DNA from: an uncultured Candidatus Rokubacteria bacterium
GTDB lineage: Bacteria > Methylomirabilota > Methylomirabilia > Rokubacteriales > CSP1-6
NCBI GenBank assembly: GCA_963789955.1
Contig: CAWBMV010000015.1
Coordinates: 32,001-96,000 of the forward strand
DNA length: 64,000 nt
Direction: 5' to 3'
Shown: positions 29,011 to 48,319 of the stretch, one piece after another
How the letters are laid out: every line of letters begins with the position of its first letter
How positions within the stretch are numbered: position 1 is the stretch's first letter
Translations under genes and position numbers: made by a program
The notes under the pieces: generated by a model
Databases searched by the model: none
What the model saw: only the letters and a program-made list of their open reading frames with translations
Told to the model about the DNA's origin: nothing

Positions 29011-30015
29011 ATGCTGACGTACGTCGTTCGTCGCTTGCTCCTCGCCGTCCTCGCGATGCGGGCGGTCTCGGTCATGGCCTTCGTGATCATCCAGCTTCCG
29101 CCCGGCGATTATGTCACCGCCTACGTCGCGCAGCTGGCGGCAGCGGGATCGTCGCGCTCCAGGGCAGCTGCGAGCACGCTCCGCGACCAGTACGGGCTCG
29201 AGCGAGCCGCTCTGGGTGCAGTACGTGCGGTGGATGCGGCTGTGCGCTGCAGGGAAACTTCGGGGCGTCGCGCTCGAGTTGCGGCAAGCCCGTGTCGGAG
29301 CTGATCGGCGAGCGCCTATGCGCTGACGATGGCGCTCTCGGTCGGCGCCATCATGCTCACGTGGTTCCTCGCGATGCCGATCGGCATCTACTCCGCGGTC
29401 CGCCAGTACTCGCTCGGCGACTACGTCGGCGACGTTCATCGGCTTCATCGGCCTGGCCGTCCCGAGCTTCATGCTCGCGCTGGTGCTGATGTACGCGCGC
29501 TTCCGCTACTTCGGCGCCAACATCGGCGGCCTGTTCTCGCGCGAGTACGCGGACGCGCCGTGGAGCCTGGGCAAGGTCTGCGATCTGCTCAAGCACCTGC
29601 TGGCTCCCGGCCGTGATCCTGGGATGGCCGGCACCGCGAGCTCGTCCGGATCATGCGCGCCAACCTGCTCGACGAGCTGCGGCAAGCCGTACGTCATGAC
29701 GGCGCGCGCGCGCGGGGCTCGTCCGAGTGGCGCTCATCTGGAAGTACCCGGTGCGGGTGGCGCTCAACCCGTTCGTCAGCACGGCTCGGCTACCTGCTGC
29801 CGTACGTGGTCTCCGGCACCATCATCGTCGTCGGTCGTGCTCGAGCCTGCCCACGGTGGCCCGCTGCTCCTGCGCGCGCTGAGCGCCAGGACATGTACCT
29901 GGCCGGCGCCATCATCCTCCTGCTCGGCGCTGCTCACCGTGGTCGGCACGCTCATCTCGGACTTGCTGCTGTGCTGGCTCGACCCGCGGATCCGCACGGA
30001 CGGGCGAGGCGCTGA
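29011..30015 (+). CDS. DppB-like ABC permease (many frameshifts)
   Basis: MLTYVVRRLL, IIQLPPGD, MRANLLDEL..PYV.TARA, LISDLLL.WLDPRIR. Confidence 0.8.
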
Positions 30016-31198
30016 GCCACGGCGACTCCCGGCCGGCGGCGTGCCGAAGTCGCAGGAGCTCGCGCTGCCGGCGTCGAGGCCGAGCGGACCGCCTCTCGGT
30101 CGCCTCGCAGTGGCAGCTGATGTGGTGGCGCTTCCGCCGCCACCGGCTGGCCGTGGTCGGCGTGGCTCGTGATCGCGCTGTCTACCTGGTCGCTGCTCTT
30201 CGCCGACTTCCTCGCGCCGTACGCCGCCCGACCGCGCACCGACGGCGCACGATCGCTCTGCCGCCGCAGGCCGATCCACTTCTTCGACCGACGGGCAGCT
30301 TTCGCGCCCGTACGTGCTACGGCGCTGCACGGGCACGCGCGACCCGCATGACGCTTCGCGCTCGTCGTACGACGCCCGACCCGAGCGCGAAGCATCCCGT
30401 CCGCTTCTTCGCGCCCGGGTGCGCCTACAAGCTCTTCGGCCTGATCCCGACCGACTCCACCTGTTCGGCGTCGCCGAGGGCGCGCGCGACGGCGCGCGTC
30501 TTCCTCTTCGGCGCCGACGCGCCAGGGCCGCGACAGTCTCTCGCGCATGATCTACGGCGACGCGGATCTCGCTCTCGATCGGCCTGGTCGGCGTGGTCGC
30601 TCAGCCTTCGTGCTCGGCGTGCTCCTCGGCGGCATCTCCGGCTACTACGGCGGCGCGATCGACACGCTCATCCAGCGGGTCATCGAGTTCATCCGCTCGA
30701 TCCCGACGATCCCGCTCTGGATGGGCTCTGGCCGCGGCGCTGCCGGCGGACTGGTCGGTGCTGCAGGTCTACTTCGCGATCACGGTGATCCTGCTCGCTC
30801 ATCGGCTGGACCGGCCTGGCGCGCGTCGTGCGCGGCCGCTTCCTGTCGCTGCGCGAGGAGGACTTCGTGACGGCCGCGCGGCTGGCCGGCTGCGAGCCAG
30901 ACGCGGATCATCTTCCGCCACATGCGTGCCGTCGTTCACTCAGCCACATCATCGCCGCGATCACGCTGGCGATCCCGGAGATGATCCTCGGCGAGACGGC
31001 GCTGAGCTTCCTCGGCCTCGGGCTGCGTCCGCCCGGCGATCAGCTGGGGCGTGCTGCTCCAGGAGGCCCAGAACATCCAGGCGCTGGCGCATCTCGCCCT
31101 GGCTGCTCGTCCCCGCCGTGCCGGTGATCGTGGTCATCCTCGCCTTCAACTTCATCGGCGACGGCCTGCGCGACGCGGCCGACCCGTACGGGCGCTGA
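30015..31198 (+). CDS. DppC-like ABC permease (many frameshifts)
   Basis: WWRFRRHRLA, GGISGYYGG..D..IQR, ETALSFLGLG, FNFIGDGLRDAADPY; start approximate. Confidence 0.8.
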
Positions 31199-31210
31199 CC
31201 ACAGCCCGAC

Positions 31211-32290
<1,080 letters not shown>

Positions 32291-33347
32291 GCCGCGCATC
32301 GCGGCGGCGCCGCTGCTCGAGGTTCGAGGACCTGCCGCAAGCACTTCCCGATCCGCGGGGCCTGCTTCGCGCGAGGTCGGGCAGGTCGAGGCGGTCGACG
32401 GCGTGACCTTCACATCGACGCGGCGAGACGCTCGGCGCTGGTCGGCGAGAGCGGCTGCGGCAAGACGACGACGGCCGCTGCATCATGCGCGCGATCGAGC
32501 CGACGGCCGGGCAGATCATCTTCCGGCGCGGCGACGGCTCGCCGTCGACGTGGCCGCCTTGCCGGCCCGGCGCAGGTCCGCACTGCGCCGCGACATGCAG
32601 ATGATCTTCCAGGATCCGTACTCGTCGCTCAACCCGCGCATGACGCTGCTCGACATCGTCGGCGAGCCGCTGCTGGTCAACCGGGTCGGCACCCGCGCGC
32701 GAGCGGACGGAGCGGGTCGCCGAGCTGCTGCGGCTGGTCGGGCTGCGCCCCGAGTACATGCGCCGCTATCCGCACGCGTTCAGCGGCGGCCAGCGCCAGC
32801 GGATCGGCATCGCGCGCGCGCTGGCGCTCAACCCGAGCTGGTCGTCGCCGACGAGCCGGTCTCGGCGCTCGACGTGTCGGTCCAGGCCCAGATCCTCAAC
32901 CTGCTCGACGACCTGCAGGCGCGAGTTCGGGCTCACCTACCTCTTCGTCTCGCACGACCTCAGCGTCGTCGAGCACATCTGCGATCGCGTCGCGGTGATG
33001 TACGTCGGCAAGATCGTCGAGCTGGCGCCGACCGAGGAGCTCTTCACGCAGCCGCTGCACCCCTACACCGAGGCGCTGCTGTCGGCGGTGCCGAAGCCCG
33101 ACCCGCGCCAGCGCGCGTCGCGGATCGTGCTCGAGGGCGAGGTGGCCGACCCGGCGAACCCGCCGCCGGGCTGCGCGTTTCCACCCGCGCTGCCCGTACG
33201 CGGTCGAGCGCTGCCGGACCGAGGCGCCGGCGCTCGAGGCCGCGCCGACGGCCGCCTGGTGGCTGTCATCGGCGCGCGCGAGCTGACCCTGCGCGGAATC
33301 GGAGTGGCCGCATGATCCGCGGATCGGGCGACGTCTAGAGGAGAGCC

Positions 33348-35025
33348 AGGCCGAGCGTCCGCATCGCAGAAGCGACCGTCCGCGTGGACGCCGGTGCGCC
33401 GCTGGGCCCGCCCGACGAATCTGGACCAGCTTCGGCTACGACGAGATCAACTGGACGTCGACACCGATCGGCAAGCGGCACCTGCAAGACCATCGGCACC
33501 TTCGCCGAGCAGCCCTACTTCGTGCGCTCTCACTACATCTTCAACAGCGGCATCGGCTGGTCGCTGCCCCACTGGGGCGCCGGCAACGTCTATCACGAGG
33601 ACGCGGCCGGCCGGCCGTTCTACGACTTCGCCATCGCCGACCAGGTGTACGACGCGGTGGTCGCACGCCGGTCACCGGCCGCTGGTCGAGCTCGCGTTCA
33701 CGCCGCGCGCGCTCGTCCCGGACGGCGCCGAGAAGACGTTTCCGTTCGCGCCGAGCCCGACCCAGTGGAGCCCGTACGAGGCCGGGCTGTGGGCGATGCC
33801 GCCGAACGACTATCAGAAGTGGGGCGGCCTAGTGCGCGCGCTGGTCGAGCATTGCGTGGCGCGCTACGGCGCGGAGCACGTCCGCGGCTGGCTGTGGGAG
33901 CTGTGGAACGAGCCGGACATCTACGTACTGGCGCGGCACGCCCGAGCAGTTCCACGCGCTCTACGACGTGACGGCGGCCGCGGTGAAGGCCGCGCTGCCC
34001 GAGGCGGCGGTCGGCGGCCCGACGACGACCGGCGATCTCGGACCCGGCCGGCGCGGCAACGAGGTCCTGCGCGGGTTTCTCGCCCACTGCGCGCGCACCG
34101 GCGCCCCGCTCGACTTCGTGTCGTTCCACACGAAGGGCGGCCGCTTCACGCCCTGGCGCGTCTACGGGCCACTCGGCGGGCCCGCGCCCACGCGCGAGTC
34201 GCCGTCGAGCCTCAAGATGTTGCGCGAGGTTCGCGCGGCGCTCGACGCCGTCGGCGCGCCATCCGGAGTTCCGCGACCTGCCGTGCATCGTGGACGAGTG
34301 CGACGCGTCCGTGCCCGCTCACTGGGGCGTGTACGACAATTCGAACTTTGCATACCGCAACACCGAGTACTTCCCGGTCTTCCAGTGCAAGCTCATGAAG
34401 AAGCTCCTCGATCTCGACCTGCGGGGCGGCGCCCGCGTTCACCAGGCCACGCACCTGGAGCTTCTACTTCGAGGGCGAGCGCTTCTTCGAGGGCACGCGC
34501 AGCTTGTTCACGGCGCAAGGCATCGAGAAGCCGGTGCTCAACGCCTATCGGATGCTGAGCCGCCTCGGCGAGACGCGTCTGGCCGTCGAGTCGACCTCGG
34601 CGTGGCCGCTGGACCGCCTCGATGACGGCGATACGGGGATGCCGGAAGAGGTCGACGCGCTCGCCACGACCGGCCGCGATGGCGTGCGCGTGCTCGTGTG
34701 GCGCCATGCCGACGATCAATACGCCACCGACTCGCGCGCCACCGCCGTCACGGTACGAGTCGATCATCTCCCGTTCAGCGGCGGCGCCCGCGTGAGCCAC
34801 TGGCGGATCGACAGCGCGCACAGCAACAGCCACGCCGTGTGGCGCGCGCTCGGCGGTCCACAAGACCCCTCCGAGCATGACCTGCGCGCCATCCAGGAGC
34901 GTCAGGAGCTCGAGCGGCTCGAGCCCGACCAGACCGTCACGGTCCGTGATGGGGTGCTGACGTTGCGAATCGCGCTGCCGCTGCCGAGCGTGTCATTGCT
35001 CGAGATCCGCCCGGCCGCGCCATGA
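33348..35025 (+). CDS. GH39-like glycoside hydrolase (frameshifted)
   Basis: WELWNEPD acid/base, LDFVSFHTKG, IVDEC nucleophile, WRID..HSNS; start codon inferred after AGGAG. Confidence 0.8.
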
Positions 35026-35187: not shown

Positions 35188-36416
35188 ATGACCAGTGAAA
35201 ACTCCCGGGACCTCAATTGCCTCACCGGCATCCGAGTCGTCGATTTCACCCAGTTCGAGGCCGGCACGTCGTGCACCGAGGCGCTCGCCTGGCTCGGCGC
35301 CGACGTGATCAAGGTCGAGAACCCGAAGACGGGCGACCCGGGCCGCCGGCTGCGGCCGGGCAAGCCCGACGACGACCCTTCTACTTCCACATGTTCAACG
35401 CCAACAAGAAGTCCATGACGGTCAATCTGAAGTCGCCGCGCGGGCTCGAGCTCGTCAAGGAGCTGCTGAAGAAGGCGGACGTCACGGTCGAGAACATGGC
35501 GCCGGGCACGATCGATCGGCTCGGGCTCGGCTACGACGAGGTGAAGAAGCTCAACCCGCGCATCATCTTCTGCCAGATCAAGGGCTTCGGCACCGGGAGC
35601 ACGTACGAGAGCGGCCTCGCCTTCGACATGATCGCGCAGGCCGCGGGCGGCATGATCAGCGTGACCGGCGAGCCCGATCGGCCGCCGGTGAAGCCGGGCC
35701 CGAGCTTCGGCGACACCGGCACCGGCATGTTGATGGCCGTGACGATCCTCGGCGCGATCCTCGAGCGGCAGCGGACCGGCAAGGGACGGCGGCTCCAGGT
35801 CGCGATGCAGGACGCCATGCTCCACTACATGCGCACGTGCTTCGCCACCCAGGCGCGCACGGGGAAGCCGGCGCGGCGCCGTGGCGGAAAATCCGTCGCC
35901 GGCACCAACTCGCCCTCGGGGCTCTATCAATGCAAACCGCTCGGCTGCAACGACTGGATCTACATCACGACGAGCCGCGGCAATCCCGAGCACTGGGGGC
36001 GGCTGATGCGCCTGATCGGGCGAGAGGAGCTGATCGACGACCCGCGCTTCGCCACCGGCGCCGCGCGTGTCGAGCGTGAGGCCGAGGTCGACGCGATCAT
36101 CAACGAGTGGACGCGGCAGCACACGAAGGAAGAGGCGATGACCCTGATCAGCGGCGTCGGCGTACCGGCCGGCGCCGTGTTCGACACGATGGAGCTTCAG
36201 AACGATCCGAGCTTCGAGAAGCGCGGCATCATGCAGGTGATGGAGCACCCGAGCGGGCCGTTCAAGATGCCGACCTGGCCGGTGCGGGTCGACGGTGAGA
36301 CGGCGCGGATCAAACCGTCACCGCAGCTCGGGCAGCACAGCGCCGAGGTGCTGAGCGCCTGGCTCGGCGTGGGCGCGGATGAGATCGCGGCCTTGAAACG
36401 CGAGGGAGTGCTCTAG
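35188..36416 (+). CDS. Family III CoA-transferase, formyl-CoA transferase-like (one frameshift)
   Basis: [41 protein letters not shown] catalytic Asp. Confidence 0.88.
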
Positions 36417-36632
36417 CCCCTTTTCGCTGTGGGGAGCTTGTCCCACAGTGGGGCACGCTCGCCCCGGTCCGTGCACGGCGGGGCGGGCGGCGCTGTCCGT
36501 CGATGCCCGGAGCACGCTCCGGCCGGTAAACCTGTTCGTAGAGAGCGCTTTAGATCTCGTTTACTCGACCAGGGTGAGGGGTGAGCGGGGTCTGGCAGGG
36601 CCCTTGCTTTGTGGCAAGGCAAGGCCGAGGCC

Positions 36633-37357
36633 ATGCGACGACTCCTGATCCTGCTCGCGCTTGCGGTGCTGACGGAAGGGTGCTCGACCGCCCCCGTCCT
36701 CCGAAGCAGGCGTTCGACTTCAAGACCACCGCGCTCTTCAAGCTGCCGTGCGACACCCCGGAGGTGCTGGCGGCCAAGCGGGAGATCCCGGACGACGGCC
36801 TCGAGACGAACGACAACCAATGTAATACGGTCCACCTCCTGAGGATGGTCGACCGCTTCATCTCCATCCAGGAGGCCGACGTGGCCAAGGGGATTCTCGG
36901 CGACACCATCGCCGAGGTCCGGGCCAAGGGCTTCAGCATCTTCACCGACGCCGAGGAACGCAAGCGGCGTCCGAACACCAAGCCCCTCTACGGCAACGAC
37001 GCGCTGGCCGCCGTGGGCATGAGCGTGGCGCCGCCCCCCCTGCAGAAGCCCGAGGAGATCAAGGCCTACGCCGATTTCATGGCCTCCCACTACGGCGAGG
37101 AGTACTACGAGAAGGACATGAAAAAGGTGGTGGACCGCTTCTGTCTCAACCGGCGCGACTCCAACGAACTGGGCGACGACCGGACGTTCGCGATCGTGTG
37201 GCGCAGTGGCCACGTCTTCAAGCGGGTGATCAAGGGCGGGCCGATCAACAACCCGAAGCAGGAGCGCGCGTTCCTGGTCTGTCCCGGCGATTTCATCGTC
37301 GACACCCTCATCGGCATCGGCAACAAGGCCGCGACCGGCTTGATGGTCATACCCTAA
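36633..37357 (+). CDS. Hypothetical lipoprotein (frameshift near 36700)
   Basis: MRRLLILLALAVLTEGC lipobox-like signal continuing into the 36581..37357 frame. Confidence 0.65.
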
Positions 37358-37370
37358 TCGGCGTCCAGCA

Positions 37371-38414
37371 TCACGGCCTCGTCCACACAATCAGCTCGCG
37401 GCCGCTGATCGTGAGCGTCGTGCCGAGCTTGTCGCAGCGTCGCACGATCTGCTCGACCGCTTCCGTGTCGTGGCGCGGGTCACAGACATAGGTTTCGTTG
37501 CGCTCGTTGTGGCGCACCAGAGAGAACGCCACCTGCACGAGCGCCGAGTCGTCGAAGGTGAGACGGGCGAGCATTCCGACCCAGTCGCCGTGGGCCCGGC
37601 GGCCATGCCCCGTGTGGAACGAGAAGCTGCCGAGGCCGTAGAAAACCGGCTTGCCACGATACATCTCGACCGCGCACGCGTAGTGCGGTCCGTGGCCCAT
37701 GACGACGTCGGCGCCGGCGTCGATCGCGGCGTGGGCGATCTCCACCTGATAGTCGAGGACGTCCTCGAACAGTCCCCAGTGATGAGAGGCGACCACGATG
37801 TCGGCGCCGGCGCGCAGCGCCCGTAGATCGGTCGCGAACTCGGCGAGCGACTTGACGTCCGCCCAGGTGTGGATCGCGGGCGGAAGCCCGGGACGATTCG
37901 CGGGCGGGACCCCGGGGCGCTGCGTCTGCAGCGGCGGCTCGTACGCGGTGCGTCCCGTCAGGACGGCGACACCGGCGGAATTGTCGGTGGCCTCGTGGCC
38001 GGTGGCCCAGTAGACGGAGGTCCGTTGCACGAAGCCGAAACGCAATCCTTCGTGGGTGACGATGGCGGGAGCGCGCGCAGCCTGGCGATTCACGCCGGCT
38101 CCGGTCCACGAAATGCCAATCGCTTCGAGCTGTCTGAGCGACGACCGAATCGCCTCCTCGCCGTAGTTCACGTTGTTGGCGTTGCCGACCGCGTGAAACC
38201 CGCCAATGACGAGAGCCTGAGCTGATGCGAGCGGAGCATAGAAGCCCTCGCGTTCCGCCGAGTGCCCGGTGGCGGGCTCATGGAAGCAGCATTCCAGATT
38301 GCCGAACAGCACGTCGGCCTCGCGTAACGTGTCCCGGATGAGCGCGAACGGCACGTGAGGATCGGTGACGTTCAGGAGGTTGATGTCGCCGGTCAGCATC
38401 AGCGCTCGTTTCAT
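37371..38414 (-). CDS. CapA/PGA_cap-family metallophosphoesterase-fold protein
   Basis: GDI, GNLEC, ANN, SHHWG, GHGPH, YGLGSF. Confidence 0.88.
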   Translation of the reverse strand: MKRALMLTGDINLLNVTDPHVPFALIRDTLREADVLFGNLECCFHEPATGHSAEREGFYAPLASAQALVIGGFHAVGNANNVNYGEEAIRSSLRQLEAIGISWTGAGVNRQAARAPAIVTHEGLRFGFVQRTSVYWATGHEATDNSAGVAVLTGRTAYEPPLQTQRPGVPPANRPGLPPAIHTWADVKSLAEFATDLRALRAGADIVVASHHWGLFEDVLDYQVEIAHAAIDAGADVVMGHGPHYACAVEMYRGKPVFYGLGSFSFHTGHGRRAHGDWVGMLARLTFDDSALVQVAFSLVRHNERNETYVCDPRHDTEAVEQIVRRCDKLGTTLTISGRELIVWTRP

Positions 38415-38449
38415 GGCTCACCCTGTATCGTCCACGCGCTCGCGCCCGC

Positions 38450-39235
38450 TCAGGGCCGGACGCCGGGCGCTTCGATCGCCATCCCCCGAGCCCGCCACAT
38501 CAGGAACAGCTCGAGCTCGACGAGCTCAGGGGCGCCGTATTCGTAGGGCTCGGCGCGGATTCCGACCAGACAGTTGCGCAGCCGTCGCTGAAGCGAGCCG
38601 AGGCTCTGCCATTCGAGCCGGTAGACCGGATAGCCGGTCGGATGCGCCTGCGGGATCGCGTTGCCGGCGAGGCGCTTGCCCCAGTTATCGTCGTGACACT
38701 GGCTGCAGGCGAGGTTGAGCTGGCCCTGCCGCCGATAGAACGCGGCGCGGCCGTTGTCGAGAAACGGCTGCACGCGACCGTCGATCGCGATGTCGATCGG
38801 CAGGCCGCGTGACTGGCGCGCCACGAACGCCGTCAGGGCGAGGAGCTCCCGGCTCTCGTAGGCGAGCGCCGGCGCCTGCTGACGCTCGGCCCGGCACAGG
38901 TTGATGCGCTGCTCGAGGTTCACGGGCCGCTTCAGCTTGGCGTCGAGCGCCGGATAGCGCGCCGCCACGCCCTTCATGCTGGCGCGCGCCTCGCCGTGGC
39001 AGTCGGCGCAGGCGCGGCCGGCGGTGCCGGCCTTGCGCGCCCACAGCCCGCCGCCCTCGAGCACCCCGAGCATTCCGGGATTGGTTGCATCATCGTCCTG
39101 CATCGCGCGCGTCTCACGGCTCATGAAGTCGTAGCCCGAGCGGCGCTCGGCCTGCGGGATCTCGCCGGGGAACGCCGTCCCGGCGAGCAGGGTCAGCGCC
39201 GTCGCGGCGAGGAGCCGGACAAAGCTCCCTCTCAA
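38450..39235 (-). CDS. soxA: SoxA-like diheme cytochrome c
   Basis: QDDDATNPG, CADCH, RINLCR, GQLNLACSQCH, YPVYRLEWQSLGSLQRRLRNC; TTG start overlaps soxZ stop. Confidence 0.92.
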   Translation of the reverse strand: MRGSFVRLLAATALTLLAGTAFPGEIPQAERRSGYDFMSRETRAMQDDDATNPGMLGVLEGGGLWARKAGTAGRACADCHGEARASMKGVAARYPALDAKLKRPVNLEQRINLCRAERQQAPALAYESRELLALTAFVARQSRGLPIDIAIDGRVQPFLDNGRAAFYRRQGQLNLACSQCHDDNWGKRLAGNAIPQAHPTGYPVYRLEWQSLGSLQRRLRNCLVGIRAEPYEYGAPELVELELFLMWRARGMAIEAPGVRP

Positions 39236-39552
39236 TCGACCGTGATCGCGGCCGACTCGGTCGCCGAGAAGCCGTTGTCGCCGGTCCACTGGAACGCGAG
39301 GGTCCCGCTCTCGGTGGCGACGGTCGAGAAGACGAAGAAGGGATTCGCGGCGATCGCCGGATGGAGCTCGGCCCGGAAGACCTCCGTGCCGTTGTAGGTG
39401 CACACGAAGAGGCGGACGATGTCGCGCGGGATCGACGTGCCGAGCTGGCTGCGGCGATACCCGGTCTCCATCGGGTGCGAGATCAGGGTCTTGATCTCGA
39501 TGACCTCACCGCGCCGGGCGCGAGGCGGCACGTTGACGAGCGCGTTGGCCAC
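39232..39552 (-). CDS. soxZ: SoxZ-like carrier-complex protein
   Basis: LISHPMETGYRR, IAANPF, W..DNG. Confidence 0.92.
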   Translation of the reverse strand: MANALVNVPPRARRGEVIEIKTLISHPMETGYRRSQLGTSIPRDIVRLFVCTYNGTEVFRAELHPAIAANPFFVFSTVATESGTLAFQWTGDNGFSATESAAITVD

Positions 39553-39554
39553 GA

Positions 39555-40019
39555 CTACGCGTCCTCGAGGCAGGCGGCCAAGGTCACCACGACCGCCGCA
39601 CTCGCGGACCAGAACGAGCCGTCGCTGAGCTCGCCGATCGCGGTCACCGTCTGGGTGTTGGCGAGCCGGATGCGCGTCGACACGCGCGCCAGCCCGGCGC
39701 GCGGCCCGAAGCGGAAGCTCACGACCTCGGGCTGAGGGTTCAGCTCGGTGAACACGTGGATCGCGCGCACATGATCGGCCGGCGTCATCGGACTCTCGAC
39801 ACTGACCGTGAGCGGCACGGTGTTGCCGTTCTCGGAGAGCGGCGGCAGCTCGAGCTTCACCCGGCCCTTCGAGACGCGGGACGAGCCGACGACCTTGCGG
39901 ATGGCGTCTTGCATCGCCTCGGGGGTTGCATGCGCGGGCGCCACGGTGATGACGGCCCCGAGTCCCAGGCCGGCCGCGGCGGCTTGCAAGAATGTGCGGC
40001 GCGTCGTCTCGCGGTCCAT
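39555..40019 (-). CDS. SoxY paralogue with AACLE-type arm, Tat signal
   Basis: TRRTFL signal, P.LSENGNTVP, NPQP, STRIRLA; ends VTLAACLEDA rather than VTIGGCGG. Confidence 0.88.
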   Translation of the reverse strand: MDRETTRRTFLQAAAAGLGLGAVITVAPAHATPEAMQDAIRKVVGSSRVSKGRVKLELPPLSENGNTVPLTVSVESPMTPADHVRAIHVFTELNPQPEVVSFRFGPRAGLARVSTRIRLANTQTVTAIGELSDGSFWSASAAVVVTLAACLEDA

Positions 40020-40447
40020 CAGTCTTTCAACGTCGTCAAGAAGGCCACCACGTCCTCGATCTGCTCGGCGCTCAGGACGGGCTTGCCGCGCCACGCCGGC
40101 GCGACCCGCGCGAGCCCATCGGTTCGATGATACGCCGGCATGATCGTGGCCGCGTTGATTCGGCTCGAATCGACGATCCGAAGACGCAGCTGACCCTCGG
40201 ACCAGCGCTTGCCGGCACCCGCCAGATCGGGCGCGAGATTGCCCTGGAAGCGCTCCTCCGGAAACGGTCCGCTGTGGCAGAGCAGGCACAGGCCGAGCTG
40301 GCGGTTGGTGACGATCGCGCGGCCGCGCGCGGGGTCGCCCTTGGCACCGGTGAGCGACGTCGGGATCGAGTCTTGCGCCGCCGCCACCCCGCCGCTCGCC
40401 GTGGCCACCGTGCAGCAGGCGGCGACGACGGCCGCGGCGAATCTCAC
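40019..40447 (-). CDS. soxX: SoxX-like monoheme cytochrome c
   Basis: GDPARGRAIV, CLLCH, GNLAPDL, TIMPAY, IEDVVAFL; GTG start overlaps fccB stop. Confidence 0.9.
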   Translation of the reverse strand: MRFAAAVVAACCTVATASGGVAAAQDSIPTSLTGAKGDPARGRAIVTNRQLGLCLLCHSGPFPEERFQGNLAPDLAGAGKRWSEGQLRLRIVDSSRINAATIMPAYHRTDGLARVAPAWRGKPVLSAEQIEDVVAFLTTLKD

Positions 40448-41718
40448 CCGAACGCCTCGGCCGTGATCGTGTGGAACCAGGCCTCGGCGAGTATCGCCTC
40501 TGCCTTGCGCGTCTCGCGCGGCGCGTCCGACGGGCTCACGCCGCCGGAGCCGGGAACGTCGGCGAGCTGTCCGCCCGTGGGCTGGTAGACGCCGGCGACG
40601 GAAATCCCGTAGTCCGGCGCCACGAGGCTGTAGCACGTGTTGATCAGCTTGGGGCTCGGCGGCGGGCTGCCGGCGAGGAGCGTCGCCACCGCGGCGGCGC
40701 ACACCTTGGCCTGGGAGTTCGCGGCGAACGCCGACTTCGGCATCGCGCCGGCGATCGCGGCGTCGCCGATGACGTGGATGCCGGCCTGTAGCTTCGATTC
40801 GAACGTGACCGGATCGATCGGGCACCAGCCGCTGCGATCGGCGACGCCGGCGACCTCCGCGATGCGGCCCGCCTTCTGCGGCGGGATGACGTTGGCCACC
40901 TTGGCCTGGTGCTTACCGAAGTCGGTCACGAGCGTGAGTGTGGCGGCGTCGACCGAGGTGACATTGCCGCCCTTGGAGAGTGGCACCCACTCGAGCAGGC
41001 CCGGATAAAGCTCGGCCCAGGCGGCCTGGAACAGCCGCTGCTTCGAGAACGCGTCCTTCGCGTCGAGCACGAGCAGCTTCGACTTCGGCTTCTTCGTCTT
41101 CAGGTAGTGAGCGATCAGGCTCGCGCGCTCGTAGGGCCCGGGCGGACACCGGAACGGATTCGCCGGCGCCGAGATGATGACGAGCCCGCCGTCGTCCATC
41201 GCCTCGAGCTGGCGGCGCAGCAGCAGGGTCTGCTCGCCCGCGCGCCACGCGTGCGGCATCACGGCGGCCGCCGCCTCGTCGTAGCCGGGCAGCGCCCCCC
41301 ATTTGATGTCGATGCCGGGCGCCAGCACGAGCCGGTCGTACGACAGCTTCGCGCCGTCGGCGAGCGTGACCGATTTCGTCGGTGCGTCGATCGCGGTCGC
41401 GGCCGTGCGGACGATCGTGATCCCATCGGCGGCGACGCGCTCGTAGGTGAACTGTTGCGCGGAGAGCTCCCGCAGGCCGCCGATCACGGAGTTACTGAAC
41501 GGGCACGCGATGAACGTCGCGCTCGGCTCGACCAGGGTCACCACGATGCGCGGGTCGGTGTGGCGGAGCGCGCGGGCACAGCTCGCGCCGGCGAAGCCTC
41601 CGCCGACGACCACGACACGGGGCCGGCCCGCTTGAGCGCGCGCCGGAAGGGGACAGAGGGCCGCGGCGGCCGTCGCCGCGACGCCGAGCTTGAGGAACGC
41701 GCGACGGTCGGTCTTCAT
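40444..41718 (-). CDS. fccB: Flavocytochrome c sulfide dehydrogenase flavoprotein (FccB/SoxF), Tat signal
   Basis: DRRAFL, GGGFAG, CPFSN, CPPGPYERAS, PKSAFAANSQ, NTCYS. Confidence 0.9.
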   Translation of the reverse strand: MKTDRRAFLKLGVAATAAAALCPLPARAQAGRPRVVVVGGGFAGASCARALRHTDPRIVVTLVEPSATFIACPFSNSVIGGLRELSAQQFTYERVAADGITIVRTAATAIDAPTKSVTLADGAKLSYDRLVLAPGIDIKWGALPGYDEAAAAVMPHAWRAGEQTLLLRRQLEAMDDGGLVIISAPANPFRCPPGPYERASLIAHYLKTKKPKSKLLVLDAKDAFSKQRLFQAAWAELYPGLLEWVPLSKGGNVTSVDAATLTLVTDFGKHQAKVANVIPPQKAGRIAEVAGVADRSGWCPIDPVTFESKLQAGIHVIGDAAIAGAMPKSAFAANSQAKVCAAAVATLLAGSPPPSPKLINTCYSLVAPDYGISVAGVYQPTGGQLADVPGSGGVSPSDAPRETRKAEAILAEAWFHTITAEAFG

Positions 41719-42008
41719 TTTTGTTCGGCGTACCAGGCGGCGATCGCCTGGATCTCGTCGTCGGTGAATCCCTTGGCGATCCTGTCCATGACGGTGGCTG
41801 CGCGTTCGCCCGAGCGGAAGTCATGCATCGCTTTGACGATCTCGGCGCGATCGCGCCCGGCGAGCCGCGCCACGGGCGAGGGGCCGCGCGCCGACGAGGG
41901 ATGACAGCCCGAGCACGCCGCGGCGCCCGCCGGCGGCTCGGCCGATGCGACGGTGGCCGCCGCGATCGATACACACGCGATCACGGCGGCCACGACACTA
42001 CGCATCAC
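41715..42008 (-). CDS. Small monoheme cytochrome c (FccA-like partner)
   Basis: Signal peptide, CSGCH, TVMDRIAKG. Confidence 0.88.
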   Translation of the reverse strand: MMRSVVAAVIACVSIAAATVASAEPPAGAAACSGCHPSSARGPSPVARLAGRDRAEIVKAMHDFRSGERAATVMDRIAKGFTDDEIQAIAAWYAEQK

Positions 42009-44191
42009 TCACACCATCTGGTAGCCGTGGTTCTTGAGCGGGAACGTGCGGATGCGCTTCCCGGTCGCCCGGAACATGGCGTTCAGGACCGCCGGCGCCG
42101 CCACGCAGATCGTCGGCTCGCCGACGCCGCCCCAGAATCCGCCGGACGGCATGATGATCGACTCCACCTTCGGCATCTGTGCGATCTTCATCGAGTCGTA
42201 GTTGGTGAAGTTCGTCTGCTCGATGGCGCCGTCCTTCACCGTGCACTCTTCCATGAAGACCGCCGACAGACCATAGACGAACGAGCCGGCGATCTGGCGC
42301 TCGATCTGCCCGGGGTTGACGGCATAGCCGGGATCGGTCGCGCAGACGATCCGCCGCACCTTCACCTTGTCGCCGCCACTGACGGACACCTCCGCGCACG
42401 CGGCCACGTAGCTGCCGAACGCCATCATGTGCGCCAGCCCTCGGTGCACGCCCTGCGGGGCCGGCTTGCCCCATCCGGCTCGGTCGGCCACGGCGTTCAG
42501 CACCGCGAGATGCTTGGGATGCTTGCTCATCAGCTTGCGCCGGAACTCGAGCGCGTCCTGACCGGCGGCCGCCGCGAGCTCGTCCATGAAGCACTCCAGG
42601 AAGATCGCATTCTGGTTGATGTTCACGCCGCGCCAGAATCCGGGCGGGACGTGCGTGTTGCGCATCGCGTGGTCGATCAGGAGATTGGGCACGGTGTAGC
42701 CGAGCGTGAAATCACCGCTCGGATCGACACCCTGGAACGTCGCGTTGTCCCGGCCGTCCTGGAGGTTCTGCGGGAACACGGAGGCCAGGATCGACTGGCC
42801 CGACAGCCGCATGTGCAGGCCGACGAGATTGCCGCTCGCGTCCAGCCCGCCGCTCATCTTCGCCTGCATGACCGGGTGATAACGGCCCTGCTGCATGTCT
42901 TCCTCGCGCGACCACAGGAGCTTCACGGGCGTGCCCGGGACCTGCTTGGCGATCCGCACGGCCTGCGTGACGTAGTCGTGGAAGGCGCCGCGGCGACCGA
43001 AGCCGCCGCCGAGGTTGATCTTGTAGACCTCGCACTTGTCGGCTGGCAAACCGGACGCCGCCAAGGTCGCCGCGAACGCGGCCTCGCCGTTCTGCGTCGG
43101 CACCCAGACCTCGCAGCGATCATCCGTGTATTTGGCCGTCGCGTTCATCGGCTCCATCGGCGCGTGGTTCTGGAACGGATACGCGTACACCGCCTCGACC
43201 TTCTTCGCAGCGCCGGCGATCGCGCCCTTCACGTCGCCGATCTGGGTCCGCACGAAGGCCTGATCGGCGTCGAGGCCTTCCTTCAGCGTGTCGGCGATCG
43301 TGGCGCTCGACACCTTCGCGTTCGGCGCCCTCGTCCCAGACGATCGGCAGCGCATCGAGCGCGGTCTTGGCCTGCCACCACGTGTTCGGCGACGACCGCG
43401 ACCGCGGAGTCGCCGACCTGCACGACGTGCTTCACGCCGGGCATGCTCTGCGCCTTGGCGGCTTCGAAGCTCTTCACCTTGCCGCCGAACACCGGGCACT
43501 CCTTGATCGCGGCGTTGAGCATTCCCGGCATTTTGAGATCGAACCCGTAGACCTGCGCGCCGGTCACCTTCTGTACGGTGTCCAGGCGCTTCACCGACTT
43601 GCCGATGATCTTCCACTCCTTGGGATCCTTGAGCGGGACATCGGCCGGCGGCGTCAGCTTCGCGGCGGCTTCCGCCACCTTGCCGTACGTGGTCGTGCGA
43701 CCGGACGGCTTGTGCGTGATGACGCTGTTGGCGGCGCTGCACTCGGCGGCCGGCACGCCCCAGGCATTGGCCGCGGCCTGCACCAGCATGACGCGAGCGG
43801 CGGCGCCGCCCTTGCGGACGTACTCGTTGGACTGTCGGATGCCGCGGCTGCCGCCCGTGGAGAAATCGCCCCACACGCGCTTGCGCGCGACGGACTGGCC
43901 GGGCGTCGGATACTCGGTGGTCACCTTCGTCCAGTCGCAGTCGAGCTCCTCGGCGACCATCTGCGCCAGACCGGTGAGCGTGCCCTGTCCCATCTCGGAG
44001 CGGGCGATCCGGACCACGACCGTGTCGTCCGGGCGGATGACCACCCAGGCGTTGATCTCGGGCGCGCCGTCCTGCGCTCGAACGACATTGGCGCCGAACG
44101 GGATCTTCAGGCCGAGGGTGAGCCCGGCGCCGACGGCCGCCGTGCCGATGACGAACGAGCGCCGATCGATCTTCGGGGTCTTGATGATCAT
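42009..44191 (-). CDS. IorB-type molybdopterin oxidoreductase large subunit, Tat signal (frameshifts near 43330-43385)
   Basis: DRRSFV, SEMGQG, TGGS, HAPMEPMN, LGGGFGRR, GGVGEP. Confidence 0.9.
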
Positions 44192-44201
44192 GGCTCTCCC
44201 T

Positions 44202-44651
44202 CTATGCCTTCGCCGCGGCGTGAATGGCTTCGCGCACCTGCTGGAACGTACCGCAACGGCAGATGTTGGTGATCCCCGCGTCGATGTCGGCGTCGGTCGG
44301 CTTCGGCTTGTCCTTCAGAAGCGCCGCCACCGCCATGATCATCCCGGCCTGGCAGTAACCGCACTGGGGCACGTCGTAGTCGACCCAGGCCTTCTGGACC
44401 TTGTGCAAGACGCCGCCATTCGCCAGGCCCTCGATCGTGGTGATCTGCTTACCCTCCGCCGAGGCGACCGGCAGCACGCAGGAACGGACCGCCTTGCCGT
44501 CGAGGTGCACCGTGCAGGCGCCGCACATCGCGACGCCGCATCCGTACTTGGTCCCCGTGAGGCCGACCTGCTCTCGGATCGCCCACAGAAGGGGCGTGCT
44601 GGGGCTGACATTGACCTCTTGGGTTTTGCCGTTGATGGTCAGGCGCGCCAT
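44202..44651 (-). CDS. IorA-type 2x[2Fe-2S] small subunit
   Basis: [30 protein letters not shown]. Confidence 0.92.
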
Positions 44652-44721
44652 GATCTTTCCTCCCAGGATTGCGGTGCCGTGGTGCGAATATCCGCGATCA
44701 CGCTCACAAGAGCAACCTTCT

Positions 44722-45329
44722 CTACAGAGGCTTGATCTGCACCTTGCGCCACTTGATGGCGCCGCCGGGCGCGTCCTTGGGCCCGTTGCCGAACTGAAGC
44801 GCGATCGGTCCCTGCGCGTGCTGACTGTCCTGAACATTGGCGGTCTGGACGCCGTTCAGCACCACGGTGAGCTGCGAGCCCTTGGCCGTGATCTCGTACG
44901 TGTTCCACTTGCCGCCGGCCTTGGGCATGGGCGACACCTTGGCCACGTTGACGATTCCCCCGGTGCCGTAGGCCGGCTCGGGGCGCTGATCGTAGATGTT
45001 CACCTCGTAGGCGTTGGTCGCGGTGATCGCGTTGGGATCGGAGCAGCGAAGGAAGACGCCGCTGTTCGTGGTGTGATCCGCCCAGAACTCCACCCGGATC
45101 TGAAAATCCTTGTACGAGCTCTTCGAGACGAGGAAGCCGCCCTTGCCCTTGTCCGCGATGATGGCGCCGGCCTCGGAGCGCCAGTTGGCATCACCGATGC
45201 GGTTCCAGTTGTCCAGACCGGTCGCGCCATCGATGAGCGTGGTCCAGCCGGCGTCGGACTGACCGAACGACATGTAGGCGCACCCGAGAACGGTCAACCC
45301 GATCCCATGACGATGGATGGGCGTCTCAT
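44722..45329 (-). CDS. DUF1080 domain exported protein
   Basis: GW..LIDG, YKDF, NSGVF, YEVNIYD, WNTYEI, GPIALQ; signal region frameshifted. Confidence 0.85.
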
Positions 45330-46243: not shown

Positions 46244-47114
46244 ATGAGCACGACGCCACACCCGGACGATGGTGATCCGACGGTCGCGATGCCGGCTCGG
46301 CCGGCCCCGGCCCCTCCGACGACGGAGACCAGGCGACTGCTTGCCTCCTTTGGACCTCGGCGAAGGCGCAGTACCGTGGCTCTCCGCCGCGGCCGCGATC
46401 GTGCTTTTCGCGATCGCGGCCGCCAGCTCGTTTTATCTCGTGCAGCGAATGAAGCCGCTTCCGGTCCCGCCCCAGCCAGCGCAAGAAGCCGCCGCTCCGC
46501 CCGTGATGCCGCAGGCCAGCCAGCCCACTCAAGCGCCGCCGCCGCGCGTGTCCGACAAGCCGTCCAGCCCGAGACAGATGTTGAAAGAAATCTTCGACGG
46601 CCGAGATCGGGGGCACGCCGTGACCGCTTCGGTTGAAAGAGGCGCGGTCCGCATCGGTTCTTCGACGCCCGGCTACGTGTATGTGCTGGCCGCCTCGGCC
46701 AACCAATTCGACGGTGCTCCGCTGTTTGTCGCAATGCTGTTCCCCAGGGCGGCGGACACGAACAATCGCGTCCGGCCCGGCCAGACGCTGACCTTGCCCG
46801 ACCTGCCGTGGCCGGCGAACGCCGAGTTCCTGGCCATCGTGTCCGATGAACGGCGCGACATCGACGTGCTCGGACAGCTGGTCGGGAAGGTCATCTGTCC
46901 CTCCAGCGGCCCCTGTTCGGAGTCCTATGGGGCCGTCGTCTTCTCGAGCGAGGGGATACGCGCGACCGCCCGCAATCCCGCGGCCCCGAAGGCCCCCGCC
47001 GCTCGACCGCCGGCTCCGGGCCCCCGCCGCTGCAGTGATATTTTGGAGCGCGCATCGCTGGGCGAGTCATTGACGGACGAGGAGCAGACGTTCCTCACGA
47101 GGGATTGCCGATGA
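46244..47114 (+). CDS. Bitopic membrane protein with DUF4384-like external domain (frameshift near 46340)
   Basis: Pro-rich N-terminus, one TM, S..PGYVYVL...LFP....NN.V.PG, C-terminal RCSDILERASLG...CR. Confidence 0.6.
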
Positions 47115-48319
47115 TGATCCGCAACCTGCTCGTTTGCGCCGGCGTGCTCCTGATCGTCGCCGGGTGCGCCACTCCCGCTCCGGCGCCGGCTCCGATTGCG
47201 GCGCCGACCAGCGACACGTCCGAGCGGAGCTTCGACGAGGCGGTGAACGTGGCCACGGACGGCCTGGTGACCCAGCTGCAGCAACGGCCGGGACCTTCGA
47301 CCAAGACGGAAGCCAGGCGAAGCCTGGTGATCGACCCCATGGTCGATGCGGCCTCCGGCCAGCAGACCGCGGCGACCCTCCTCCTCGAGCAACGGGTGGC
47401 GGAGCGGCTCCGCAGCAGCGCCGCGCAGCTCGACGTCGTGCCCTTTCAGGTGCTCAACCTGAGCCAGGCGCAGTATCTGTTGACCGGGACGATGGCGCGC
47501 GTCGCGAGTAGCCAGCCCGGGGCGTCCCAGGTGTTCGAGATCAACCTGGCGGTGACGGATCTGAAGGACGGGATGGTCGTGGCGCAGGCGTCGTCGCGCG
47601 CGCGCGACGAAGGAGTGGATACGAATCCGACGCCGTACTACCGCGACAGTCCCGTCGTGGTGAAGGACCAGGTGGTCGACGGCTACATCGCCACCTCCAA
47701 GACGCCACCCGGTCGCCCGGCTGATCCGGTCTACTTCGAGCGCGTTGCCACGGCGACCGTCGTCAGCGAGGCCACCATCGCCTACAACGGCGGCAACTAT
47801 CAGGACGCCCTCGCGCTCTATCAGACTGCGTCGGCCAAACCAGGAGGCGAGCAGCTGCGGGTGCTCAACGGGATCTACCTCGCCTCGTGGAAGCTCGGCC
47901 GCGCGAACGAGGCGGAGGCGGCGTTCGGTAAGGTCGTCGCGCTCGGATTGAGCAGCAACAACCTCGGCGTGAAGTTCCTGTTCAATCCCGGGACGACCAA
48001 CTTCTGGTCCGACCCGCAAGTCAGCGGGCCGTACGGCTTCTGGTTGCGGCAAATCGCGCGACAGGCGGTGTTGGCGAGAGTCTGTATGAACCTGGTGGGC
48101 CACACGAGCCGGACTGGATCAGTGCCCTACAACGACCGACTCTCTCTGCAGCGCGCCACCTACATCAAGCAGCGCCTCGAAACGGAGGCGCCCCAGCTCG
48201 CCCCGCGGACTCGAGCGTCGGGGATGGGCTTCCGGGAGAATCTCGTGGGCACGGGCACCGACGATGCGCGCGATGCGCTCGATCGGAGGGTCGAGTTCAA
48301 GATCAGCGAGTGCTCATAG
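47111..48319 (+). CDS. Lipoprotein with TPR-like segment and C-terminal OmpA-like domain
   Basis: IVAGC lipobox; VGHTS..G...YNDRLSLQRA...DRRVEF. Confidence 0.85.
   Translation: MMIRNLLVCAGVLLIVAGCATPAPAPAPIAAPTSDTSERSFDEAVNVATDGLVTQLQQRPGPSTKTEARRSLVIDPMVDAASGQQTAATLLLEQRVAERLRSSAAQLDVVPFQVLNLSQAQYLLTGTMARVASSQPGASQVFEINLAVTDLKDGMVVAQASSRARDEGVDTNPTPYYRDSPVVVKDQVVDGYIATSKTPPGRPADPVYFERVATATVVSEATIAYNGGNYQDALALYQTASAKPGGEQLRVLNGIYLASWKLGRANEAEAAFGKVVALGLSSNNLGVKFLFNPGTTNFWSDPQVSGPYGFWLRQIARQAVLARVCMNLVGHTSRTGSVPYNDRLSLQRATYIKQRLETEAPQLAPRTRASGMGFRENLVGTGTDDARDALDRRVEFKISECS

What the first reader, a model, noticed from the sequence alone, without database searches (positions are those of the whole stretch)
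37371..45329. Non-canonical Sox-like operon: SoxAX + SoxY(AACLE)/SoxZ + Fcc coupled to a Tat-exported IorAB molybdoenzyme, with no SoxB or SoxCD
Seen: same-strand order DUF1080, iorA-like, iorB-like, cytochrome c, fccB, soxX, soxY-like, soxZ, soxA, capA-like. From iorB to soxA every junction abuts, overlaps (ATGA, GTGA, TGATG, TTGA) or has a 2-nt gap, so this is very likely one operon. Known: canonical thiosulfate oxidation needs SoxB (hydrolase) and usually SoxCD (sulfite-oxidase-family Mo enzyme); neither is here. Inference: a periplasmic carrier-based pathway in which a xanthine-oxidase-family Mo hydroxylase works with a Sox-like carrier. It could remove sulfur from an organosulfur or thio-heterocyclic substrate and trap it via Fcc and SoxAX/YZ, or use the carrier to deliver the Mo sulfido ligand. 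The parts are known families; I know of no characterised function for this assembly.
Basis: partly seen in the sequence, partly recalled or inferred. Interest (0 to 1): 0.85.

Follow-up and report, generated by a model that had tools for sequence, protein, structure and literature searches.

The report
Molybdenum enzyme with variant sulfur carrier
Eight packed genes join a molybdenum oxidase to a non-standard copy of the sulfur-carrier (Sox) proteins; the same block recurs in many other bacteria, often ones with no ordinary thiosulfate-oxidation enzyme, so it likely runs a separate, still untested pathway, possibly removing sulfur from an organic compound.

Summary
Real and conserved, but eight genes, not ten: iorA-iorB-fccA-fccB-soxX-soxY'(AACLE)-soxZ-soxA behind its own predicted promoter. 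DUF1080 (1 of 149 related loci) and capA (0 of 149) are chance neighbours. SoxY' belongs to the named, uncharacterised family TIGR04487. IorAB lies beside it in 28 of 28, 66 of 67 and 16 of 17 loci with enough flank; SoxB in 0 of 149. This genome has a separate canonical soxY(GGCGG)ZXAB locus, yet 17 of 19 alphaproteobacterial carriers have no SoxB, the background rate, so the cassette stands alone. Its IorB forms a dedicated clade. A cluster of this content was described in Starkeya novella (2013), where its SoxAX/YZ went undetected on thiosulfate; this scan also met it in at least seven other genomes. I found no function in print. Best reading (0.4, inferred): a periplasmic enzyme-carrier pair oxidising a sulfur-bearing organic substrate, with SoxAX and Fcc handling the sulfur. 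The IorB-SoxYZ contact could not be modelled. New member of a known but unexplained kind.

The parts
44687..44715 (-). Predicted sigma-70-type promoter of the cassette (-35 TTGCTC, 17 nt, -10 GATATT), between the DUF1080 stop and iorA
   Evidence: Same pattern about 30 nt before iorA in 25 of 30 same-phylum loci against 1 of 6000 shuffles; pattern written after seeing the sequences; the generic scanner did not list it
44202..44651 (-). iorA-like 2x[2Fe-2S] subunit, 149 aa, no signal peptide
   Evidence: Pfam Fer2 and Fer2_2
42009..44191 (-). iorB-like molybdopterin subunit (about 726 aa) with twin-arginine motif DRRSF; two probable assembly frameshifts near 43385 and 43324
   Evidence: MoCoBD_1/2; intact proxy L045:8807-10984, 94-96% identical; model pLDDT 88.6 matches 8GY3_C, TM 0.86, 27% identity; Glu691 and Gln366 invariant in 66 of 66
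41715..42008 (-). fccA-like monoheme cytochrome c (CSGCH)
   Evidence: (weak, below cut-off), sequence; variable member: 28 of 28, 33 of 67, 9 of 17
40444..41718 (-). fccB/soxF flavocytochrome c sulfide dehydrogenase flavoprotein, twin-arginine motif
   Evidence: FCSD_central and FCSD-flav_bind; 5N1T E 1.7e-151; Cys191 and Cys362 in 130 of 130
40019..40447 (-). soxX-like monoheme cytochrome c
   Evidence: TIGR04485 80 bits, cut-off 61
39555..40019 (-). SoxY' carrier with arm VTLAAC150LEDA, twin-arginine motif
   Evidence: TIGR04487 202 bits, cut-off 172; Ala149 and Cys150 in 158 of 158, Glu/Asp two after the Cys in 155 of 158
39232..39552 (-). soxZ-like carrier subunit
   Evidence: TIGR04490 82.5 bits, cut-off 76
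38450..39235 (-). diheme soxA-like cytochrome with active-site Cys226, Arg222, Arg210 (numbering of the 265-aa frame)
   Evidence: TIGR04484 225 bits, cut-off 110; 1H31 E 1.5e-52; residues in 152, 152, 151 of 152

Best explanation
The eight genes likely form one stand-alone, probably periplasmic pathway in which a dedicated molybdenum hydroxylase (IorAB) likely works with a variant SoxYZ carrier to oxidise a small sulfur-bearing organic substrate. Shown: the gene set, its fixed linkage, intact catalytic residues, independence from SoxB. Inferred steps: (1) IorB, FccB and SoxY' leave by Tat, IorA riding with IorB; (2) SoxAX', keeping its cysteine-ligated heme and anion-binding arginines, couples a thiolate or sulfane group to Cys150 of SoxY'; (3) the Mo centre does its usual family chemistry, adding OH to an aldehyde-, thione- or heterocycle-type carbon, on a group held by the arm or on a free substrate whose sulfur is caught by the arm; (4) FccB exchanges sulfide/sulfane with the arm and recycles it; (5) electrons go through the [2Fe-2S] centres and the c-type hemes to respiration. 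The stiffer, acidic AAC-x-E arm would be shaped for IorB rather than SoxB.
For: IorAB within 7.5 kb on the same strand as SoxY' in 28 of 28, 66 of 67 and 16 of 17 loci with enough flank, more constant than FccB (28, 62, 11) or FccA (28, 33, 9). Linkage survives rearrangement (Roseomonas; L163, L164). Reverse test: 21 of 26 full-length IorB matches at 61% identity or more sit beside soxYZ'. These IorBs form one clade (54 rows, SH-aLRT 100) with their own motifs near the Mo site (FWRGVNxNxN, GEPTI, R103/R105/W107). More distant IorBs also sit with non-GGCGG SoxYZ (L174, L175 at about 50%; L180, L182 at about 41%; L194). SoxB in 2 of 19 carriers against 35 of 351 overall (Fisher p 1.0). S. novella second-cluster SoxAX/YZ not detected in any tested growth condition, thiosulfate included (PMC3797975). 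SoxA and FccB catalytic residues kept.
Against: No substrate, activity or contact is shown. No transporter, hydrolase or regulator is conserved beside the cassette to point to a substrate. 4 of the 26 clade IorBs have no SoxYZ beside them, and G312 has IorAB with soxX and soxA but no SoxY match in its genome; L096 and L158 have the Sox-like genes without IorAB beside them. The closest solved relative is a plain aldehyde dehydrogenase. I know of no xanthine-oxidase-family enzyme that acts on a protein-bound substrate (own knowledge). The twin-arginine motif is also in unlinked IorBs, so it is no special sign.
Confidence: 0.4

Rival explanations
1. IorAB is an ordinary exported aldehyde or N-heterocycle dehydrogenase; SoxAX' and FccA serve as its heme electron acceptors (in place of the cytochrome subunit of the acetic-acid-bacteria enzyme), and SoxYZ'/FccB are a co-expressed sulfide or persulfide buffer with no substrate hand-over.
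For: Best structural match is the membrane-bound aldehyde dehydrogenase 8GY3; IorAB has no FAD subunit in the cassette; G312 keeps only soxX and soxA beside IorAB; divergent SoxYZ also sit beside alcohol, methanol and formate dehydrogenases, read by the authors as a carbon-metabolism or protective role (PMC11237559).
Against: SoxYZ' is at least as constant a partner as SoxAX' (soxZ 67, soxA 65 of 67); L082 has iorAB-soxYZ only, L180/L182 have soxYZ-iorAB without soxAX; SoxA keeps its anion-binding arginines.
Confidence: 0.22
2. The carrier system recharges the labile terminal sulfido ligand (Mo=S) of the exported enzyme: FccB/SoxAX' make SoxY'-persulfide from sulfide or thiosulfate and the arm hands the sulfur to molybdenum.
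For: The family needs Mo=S (established knowledge); SoxYZ-S-sulfane is the working form of the canonical carrier (PMC5336275); pairing recurs across distant IorB lineages; clade-specific residues flank the Mo-binding motifs.
Against: Of nine distant IorBs (40-43%) fetched, seven have no Sox-like gene nearby, so exported IorAB-type enzymes do not generally need it; six extra proteins with four hemes and a flavin is a large outlay for a maturation step (inference).
Confidence: 0.2
3. An alternative inorganic sulfur pathway: SoxAX'/FccAB load thiosulfate or sulfide on SoxY' and IorAB takes the place of SoxB/SoxCD.
For: All loading enzymes are intact; IorAB fills the slot of the missing enzymes; the cassette mostly occurs without SoxB.
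Against: Not induced on thiosulfate in S. novella; in Bradyrhizobium diazoefficiens only soxY1 of the canonical locus is essential for thiosulfate oxidation (PMC5748708; that its soxY2 is the AAC type is my inference, not checked); oxidation at sulfur is not known chemistry for this Mo family (own knowledge).
Confidence: 0.12
4. Redundant Sox isoenzymes that feed the canonical SoxB pathway, with IorAB an unrelated passenger.
For: This genome has SoxB elsewhere; SoxX, SoxZ and SoxA pass the canonical cut-offs; a SoxY tree without the arm separates AAC from GGCGG rows only weakly (80/69).
Against: 17 of 19 carriers have no SoxB; IorAB linkage 110 of 112 flanked loci (two of them counted twice).
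Confidence: 0.05

Closest known systems
Second sox cluster of Starkeya novella: soxX2Y2Z2A2F2 (Snov_1982-1977) plus xanthine-oxidase-family Mo enzyme Snov_1975/1976 (PMC3797975)
   Same: Same gene content: SoxAX, SoxYZ, two-subunit flavocytochrome c, XO-family enzyme, no SoxB or SoxCD; canonical sox locus elsewhere in the genome.
   Different: Gene order as written in the paper differs (Sox genes first); different phylum. I did not retrieve the S. novella sequences, so arm type and orthology are unchecked. The paper suggests it may have no functional significance or matter under other conditions.
NCBIfam TIGR04487 SoxY_para_1, 'SoxY-related AACIE arm protein'
   Same: SoxY' passes the cut-off.
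   Different: The model names one protein; it gives no pathway or function.
Canonical Sox system SoxAX-YZ-B(-CD) (Paracoccus, Rhodovulum, Thermus)
   Same: SoxA, SoxX, SoxZ pass canonical models; SoxA is diheme and closest to 1H31 with active-site Cys and Arg kept.
   Different: AAC-x-E arm instead of GGCGG; no SoxB or SoxCD in 149 loci (SoxB tested); IorAB as fixed partner; distribution independent of SoxB.
Membrane-bound aldehyde dehydrogenase of Gluconobacter oxydans (PDB 8GY3, IorB-type large subunit)
   Same: Same fold and domain order, TM 0.86 over 728 columns; catalytic Glu and GGGFGRR motif.
   Different: 27% identity; different motifs near the Mo site; linked here to Sox-like genes.
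Flavocytochrome c sulfide dehydrogenase FccAB/SoxEF (5N1T, 1FCD)
   Same: Flavoprotein E 1.7e-151 with both redox cysteines.
   Different: Cytochrome partner monoheme here and absent from many loci that keep fccB.

Membership tests
TIGR04487 SoxY-related AACIE arm protein | Score over curated cut-off and AAC-x-E arm | tested here: met
   202.2 bits against 172; arm AACLEDA
Canonical Sox system | SoxY with GGCGG arm (TIGR04488) | tested here: not met
   114.1 bits against 125; the C12 copy passes, 139.8
Canonical Sox system | SoxB in the cluster | tested here: not met
   None in the cluster or in 149 related loci; SoxB lies on C12 with its own SoxYZ/XA
Canonical Sox system | SoxCD | tested here: not met
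   No match over the TIGR04555 cut-off in this 87%-complete genome
Canonical Sox system | SoxA with cysteine-ligated catalytic heme and conserved arginines; SoxX monoheme | tested here: met
Canonical Sox system | Thiosulfate oxidation to sulfate | not testable with these tools
   Published data on similar clusters point against it
S. novella-type second sox cluster | soxX, Y, Z, A, two-subunit soxF and XO-family Mo enzyme in one locus, no soxB/CD | tested here: met
S. novella-type second sox cluster | Sequence orthology to Snov_1975-1982 | not tested
   S. novella sequences not retrieved
IorAB/AldGH-type molybdenum hydroxylase | 2x[2Fe-2S] small subunit, IorB-type large subunit, catalytic Glu and Gln | tested here: met
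IorAB/AldGH-type molybdenum hydroxylase | Activity on isoquinoline or aldehydes | not testable with these tools
   No assay; no NCBIfam model of defined substrate reached its cut-off for either subunit (IorB given in two pieces)
FccAB sulfide dehydrogenase | Flavoprotein with two redox cysteines and FAD-binding cysteine, plus c-type cytochrome | tested here: met
   Cys191, Cys362 in 130 of 130, Cys72 in 124 of 130
Tat-exported complex | Twin-arginine signal on IorB, FccB, SoxY' | tested here: inconclusive
   Motifs visible (R10, R11, F13 in at least 90% of 66); export not shown

The most novel reading that the evidence does not exclude
A widespread, unrecognised branch of sulfur metabolism in which a xanthine-oxidase-family enzyme acts directly on a substrate tethered to a SoxY-type swinging arm: the first protein-carrier-dependent molybdenum hydroxylase, stripping sulfur from a common soil organosulfur compound in Rokubacteria, Bradyrhizobium, Methylobacterium and many other bacteria.
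Probability: 0.3. Interest if true: 0.85.

Novelty: new member of a known kind. Interest (0 to 1): 0.52.

Why it matters
The cassette is common (50 of 251 genomes of this phylum, 19 of 351 sampled Alphaproteobacteria) and has no known job. If the Mo enzyme uses the carrier, it is new chemistry for both families. It is directly testable in cultured hosts that carry it (Methylobacterium, Neorhizobium, Bradyrhizobium). There is also a practical point: its SoxA, SoxX and SoxZ pass the canonical thiosulfate-oxidation models while most alphaproteobacterial carriers lack SoxB, so surveys that count soxAX or soxZ as thiosulfate oxidation may overcount; one floodplain-soil study reads soxAX transcripts that way (10.1101/2020.05.14.086363; I did not check which type it counted), and a 2026 Sox survey sets aside about 1000-1300 out-of-cluster paralogues each of soxA, X, Y and Z without discussing a xanthine-oxidase partner (PMC13500833).

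Tried and rejected
DUF1080 and capA as members: rejected. Conserved flanking genes that might name a substrate: none; clusters were lineage-specific transporters, hydrolases or shadow ORFs. ESM Atlas look-up of IorB: not available. Expression: 18 RNA runs among holders from 12 studies carry parts of the stretch, but in the four laid contigs cover the flanks as well and cannot show strand, level or one transcript, so this is no evidence of expression; high depth over iorAB may come from other organisms' homologues. SoxZ Cys51 as a marker (148 of 156): also present in one of three GGCGG-linked SoxZ that aligned, dropped. SoxY tree without the arm: too weak to prove separation from canonical SoxY. 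Plasmid hit H4 is a canonical GGCGG locus and H16 a soxYZ-fcc unit; both left out of counts. Generic promoter scan found none. A basic patch on IorB (R103, R105) meeting the acidic arm is an idea only: no coordinates were available to check its position. Literature: AACIE with SoxY gave 0 papers; searches gave no functional study. Not held: Masuda 2010, Kappler and Maher 2013, Kilmartin 2011; the S. novella molybdoproteome paper was not listed; these may describe the cluster further. Supplements were not read. The tags bll2732-2737 were recalled; the only hit lists bll2737-bll2736 among operons with an Irr motif and I did not verify that they are this IorAB.
Full report
Observation. The ten ORFs lie on the minus strand as described. 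Pfam and NCBIfam give a [2Fe-2S] subunit, a molybdopterin subunit, a small cytochrome c, a flavocytochrome c flavoprotein, SoxX, a SoxY relative, SoxZ and SoxA, flanked by PF06439 (DUF1080) and PF09587 (CapA) genes. Junctions from iorA to soxA are 10 nt or less. The SoxY ends AACLEDA and passes TIGR04487, 'SoxY-related AACIE arm protein', but not the GGCGG model. iorB is broken into three frames in this assembly; contigs of public runs lack one base at 43385 (three of four runs) and 43324 (one run), a same-genus genome has an intact 726-aa gene, and other genes of the assembly show like shifts, so I treat these as assembly errors. Names of close SoxY homologues place the organism among Rokubacteria/Methylomirabilota.

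The rest of the genome. Contig C12 has soxY(GGCGG)-soxZ-fused soxXA-soxB, SoxB split into two frames scoring 319 and 448 bits, and a second fccB nearby. No SoxC passes its cut-off. So the window's cluster is a second, different system beside a canonical one.

Extent and conservation. 50 of 251 genomes of the phylum pass TIGR04487; I fetched the 49 others. All 28 with at least 5.2 kb upstream and 2 kb downstream hold all eight genes, in the same order. In an even draw of 351 genomes of the class that holds Bradyrhizobium oligotrophicum (seed included, completeness filter 95), 19 pass the cut-off; of 20 fetched (18 of these plus two just under), 17 had flank and 16 have iorAB. In 300 scored genomes of the class of a Burkholderiaceae seed, 2 pass, seed included, and the non-seed one has all eight genes in order. 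Annotated plasmids show the same block in Methylobacterium and Neorhizobium and a rearranged one in Roseomonas. Across the 149 loci, SoxB 0, capA 0, DUF1080 1. A sigma-70-like promoter sits about 30 nt before iorA in 25 of 30 same-phylum loci and in the window (1 of 6000 shuffles; pattern drawn up after looking; 0 of 91 other loci). An Irr-like motif with up to three mismatches lies before iorA in 11 of 91 of those other loci against 17 of 9100 shuffles, a hint of iron control in some Alphaproteobacteria.

Independence from canonical Sox. SoxB is in 2 of 21 genomes tested that carry the cassette and in 35 of 351 of the whole draw; without the seed, 1 of 18 against 33 of 332, p 1.0. Kin are not independent and genomes may be incomplete, but there is no sign of enrichment.

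Reverse test. Searching the same 351 genomes with the intact IorB (three candidates scored per genome) gave 26 full-length matches at 61-74% identity and then a drop to 53% and below. 21 of the 26 sit beside soxYZ'; one is cut by a contig end after fccA-fccB; one (G312) has soxX and soxA only and no SoxY match in the genome; three stand alone, and in those genomes variant SoxYZ loci lie elsewhere. In a 69-row tree (quick method, no bootstrap) these enzymes form a clade of 54 rows with SH-aLRT 100; the eight same-phylum rows nest among alphaproteobacterial rows, which hints at transfer but was not tested. Clade-specific residues include FWRGVNxNxN against FWRSVGxS/T, GEPTI against GEPG, and R103, R105, W107. 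IorBs at about 50% (L174, L175) sit with SGAC-x-E SoxY, soxZ and soxA; two of nine at 40-43% (L180, L182) with GAC[S/A] SoxYZ; the other seven have no Sox-like neighbour.

Catalytic equipment. SoxA keeps the catalytic heme, Cys226, Arg222 (152 of 152) and Arg210 (151 of 152), the residues that line the thiosulfate site in this family (PMC4423706, passages); the position matching Arg190 of 1H31 is mostly Ala (118 of 152). FccB keeps both redox cysteines (130 of 130). IorB keeps Glu691 and Gln366 (66 of 66), and its model (pLDDT 88.6) matches the Gluconobacter membrane-bound aldehyde dehydrogenase subunit 8GY3_C with TM 0.86 at 27% identity. In many loci fccB follows iorB with no cytochrome gene; of 39 loci checked that lack an fccA match none showed a convincing substitute, so another heme protein, perhaps SoxAX', must take its electrons (inference).

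Mechanism. The most constant pair is IorAB with SoxYZ'; SoxAX' is nearly as constant, Fcc less so. The loading enzymes are intact while the unloading enzymes of the canonical cycle are missing, and a Mo enzyme that normally hydroxylates carbon is present instead. I therefore favour an enzyme-carrier pair for oxidising a sulfur-bearing organic compound (0.4), over an aldehyde dehydrogenase with borrowed cytochromes and a sulfur buffer (0.22), sulfido recharge (0.2), an inorganic pathway (0.12) and redundant isoenzymes (0.05). Every chemical step is inferred. The contact between IorB and the carrier is left open because no complex could be predicted.

What is known. PMC3797975 (passages read) describes in S. 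novella a second cluster soxX2Y2Z2A2F2 with a xanthine-oxidase-family enzyme, lacking SoxB and SoxCD; its SoxAX and SoxYZ were not detected in proteomes, transcripts were very low, and the authors suggest no functional significance or a role under other conditions. PMC5748708 (first quarter of the text and passages) states that only soxY1 is essential for thiosulfate oxidation in B. diazoefficiens. PMC11237559 (passages and part of one section) discusses divergent SoxY beside carbon dehydrogenases; I saw no mention of this cassette in those parts. PMC13500833 (passages) has no occurrence of 'xanthine'. PMC5336275 (passages) supports the sulfane form of the carrier. PMC3570799 had no 'sox' or 'xanthine'. 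Ten searches found no functional study; several key subscription papers were not held. Earlier notes of this scan report the same cassette in seven other genomes and gave me the S. novella lead, which I then read.

Verdict. A real, stand-alone, widespread cassette, already seen once in print and named at the level of one protein family, with no known function. This copy is a new member of that kind. Added here: the eight-gene boundary with its promoter, the dedicated IorB clade, the independence from SoxB, and the recurrence of IorAB-SoxYZ pairing in distant lineages. Interest 0.52.

Noticed in passing
L180 (G579:C20), L182 (G490:C11), L197, L198: A distant version: soxY (arm GACS/GACA)-soxZ-unknown ORF-iorA-iorB (about 41%)-cytochrome c, with a divergent fccB-like and FGE-sulfatase-domain gene on one side and a convergent PF13447 multiheme cytochrome and cytochrome b on the other. 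L197 and L198 are near-identical to L180.
   Followed up: partly
L194 (G508:C24:118414-121704): An IorAB at about 34% identity transcribed away from a soxY (arm GACEG) and soxZ: a third IorB lineage beside a non-GGCGG carrier.
   Followed up: no
G000:C12:278400-289600 (L010): Canonical soxY(GGCGG)-soxZ-fused soxXA-soxB follows a large molybdopterin oxidoreductase that looks polysulfide-reductase-like (my reading of the sequence, no family search) and a second fccB.
   Followed up: partly
L062 (Sinorhizobium meliloti pSymA, CP140933.1): soxY with arm TNGCL, soxZ, cytochrome c and fccB, with no SoxAX, SoxB or Mo enzyme in the stretch shown.
   Followed up: no
L167 (G312:C1): Clade IorAB followed by soxX and soxA only; no SoxY match in the genome.
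   Followed up: partly
L074: Two IorAB pairs in tandem before the fcc-sox genes, one inside and one outside the main clade.
   Followed up: partly
window 36581-37357 (+): 258-aa ORF with no Pfam or NCBIfam match; a related contig joins 36573 to 37366 without it, and another joins 36388 to 38446 without it and capA, so both are variable inserts.
   Followed up: partly
window 29471-34400: Peptide ABC transporter genes and a following gene appear split over several frames, consistent with an indel-prone assembly.
   Followed up: no
window 46269-48319 (+): A DUF4384-like protein and an OmpA-domain lipoprotein-like gene, both below Pfam cut-off.
   Followed up: no
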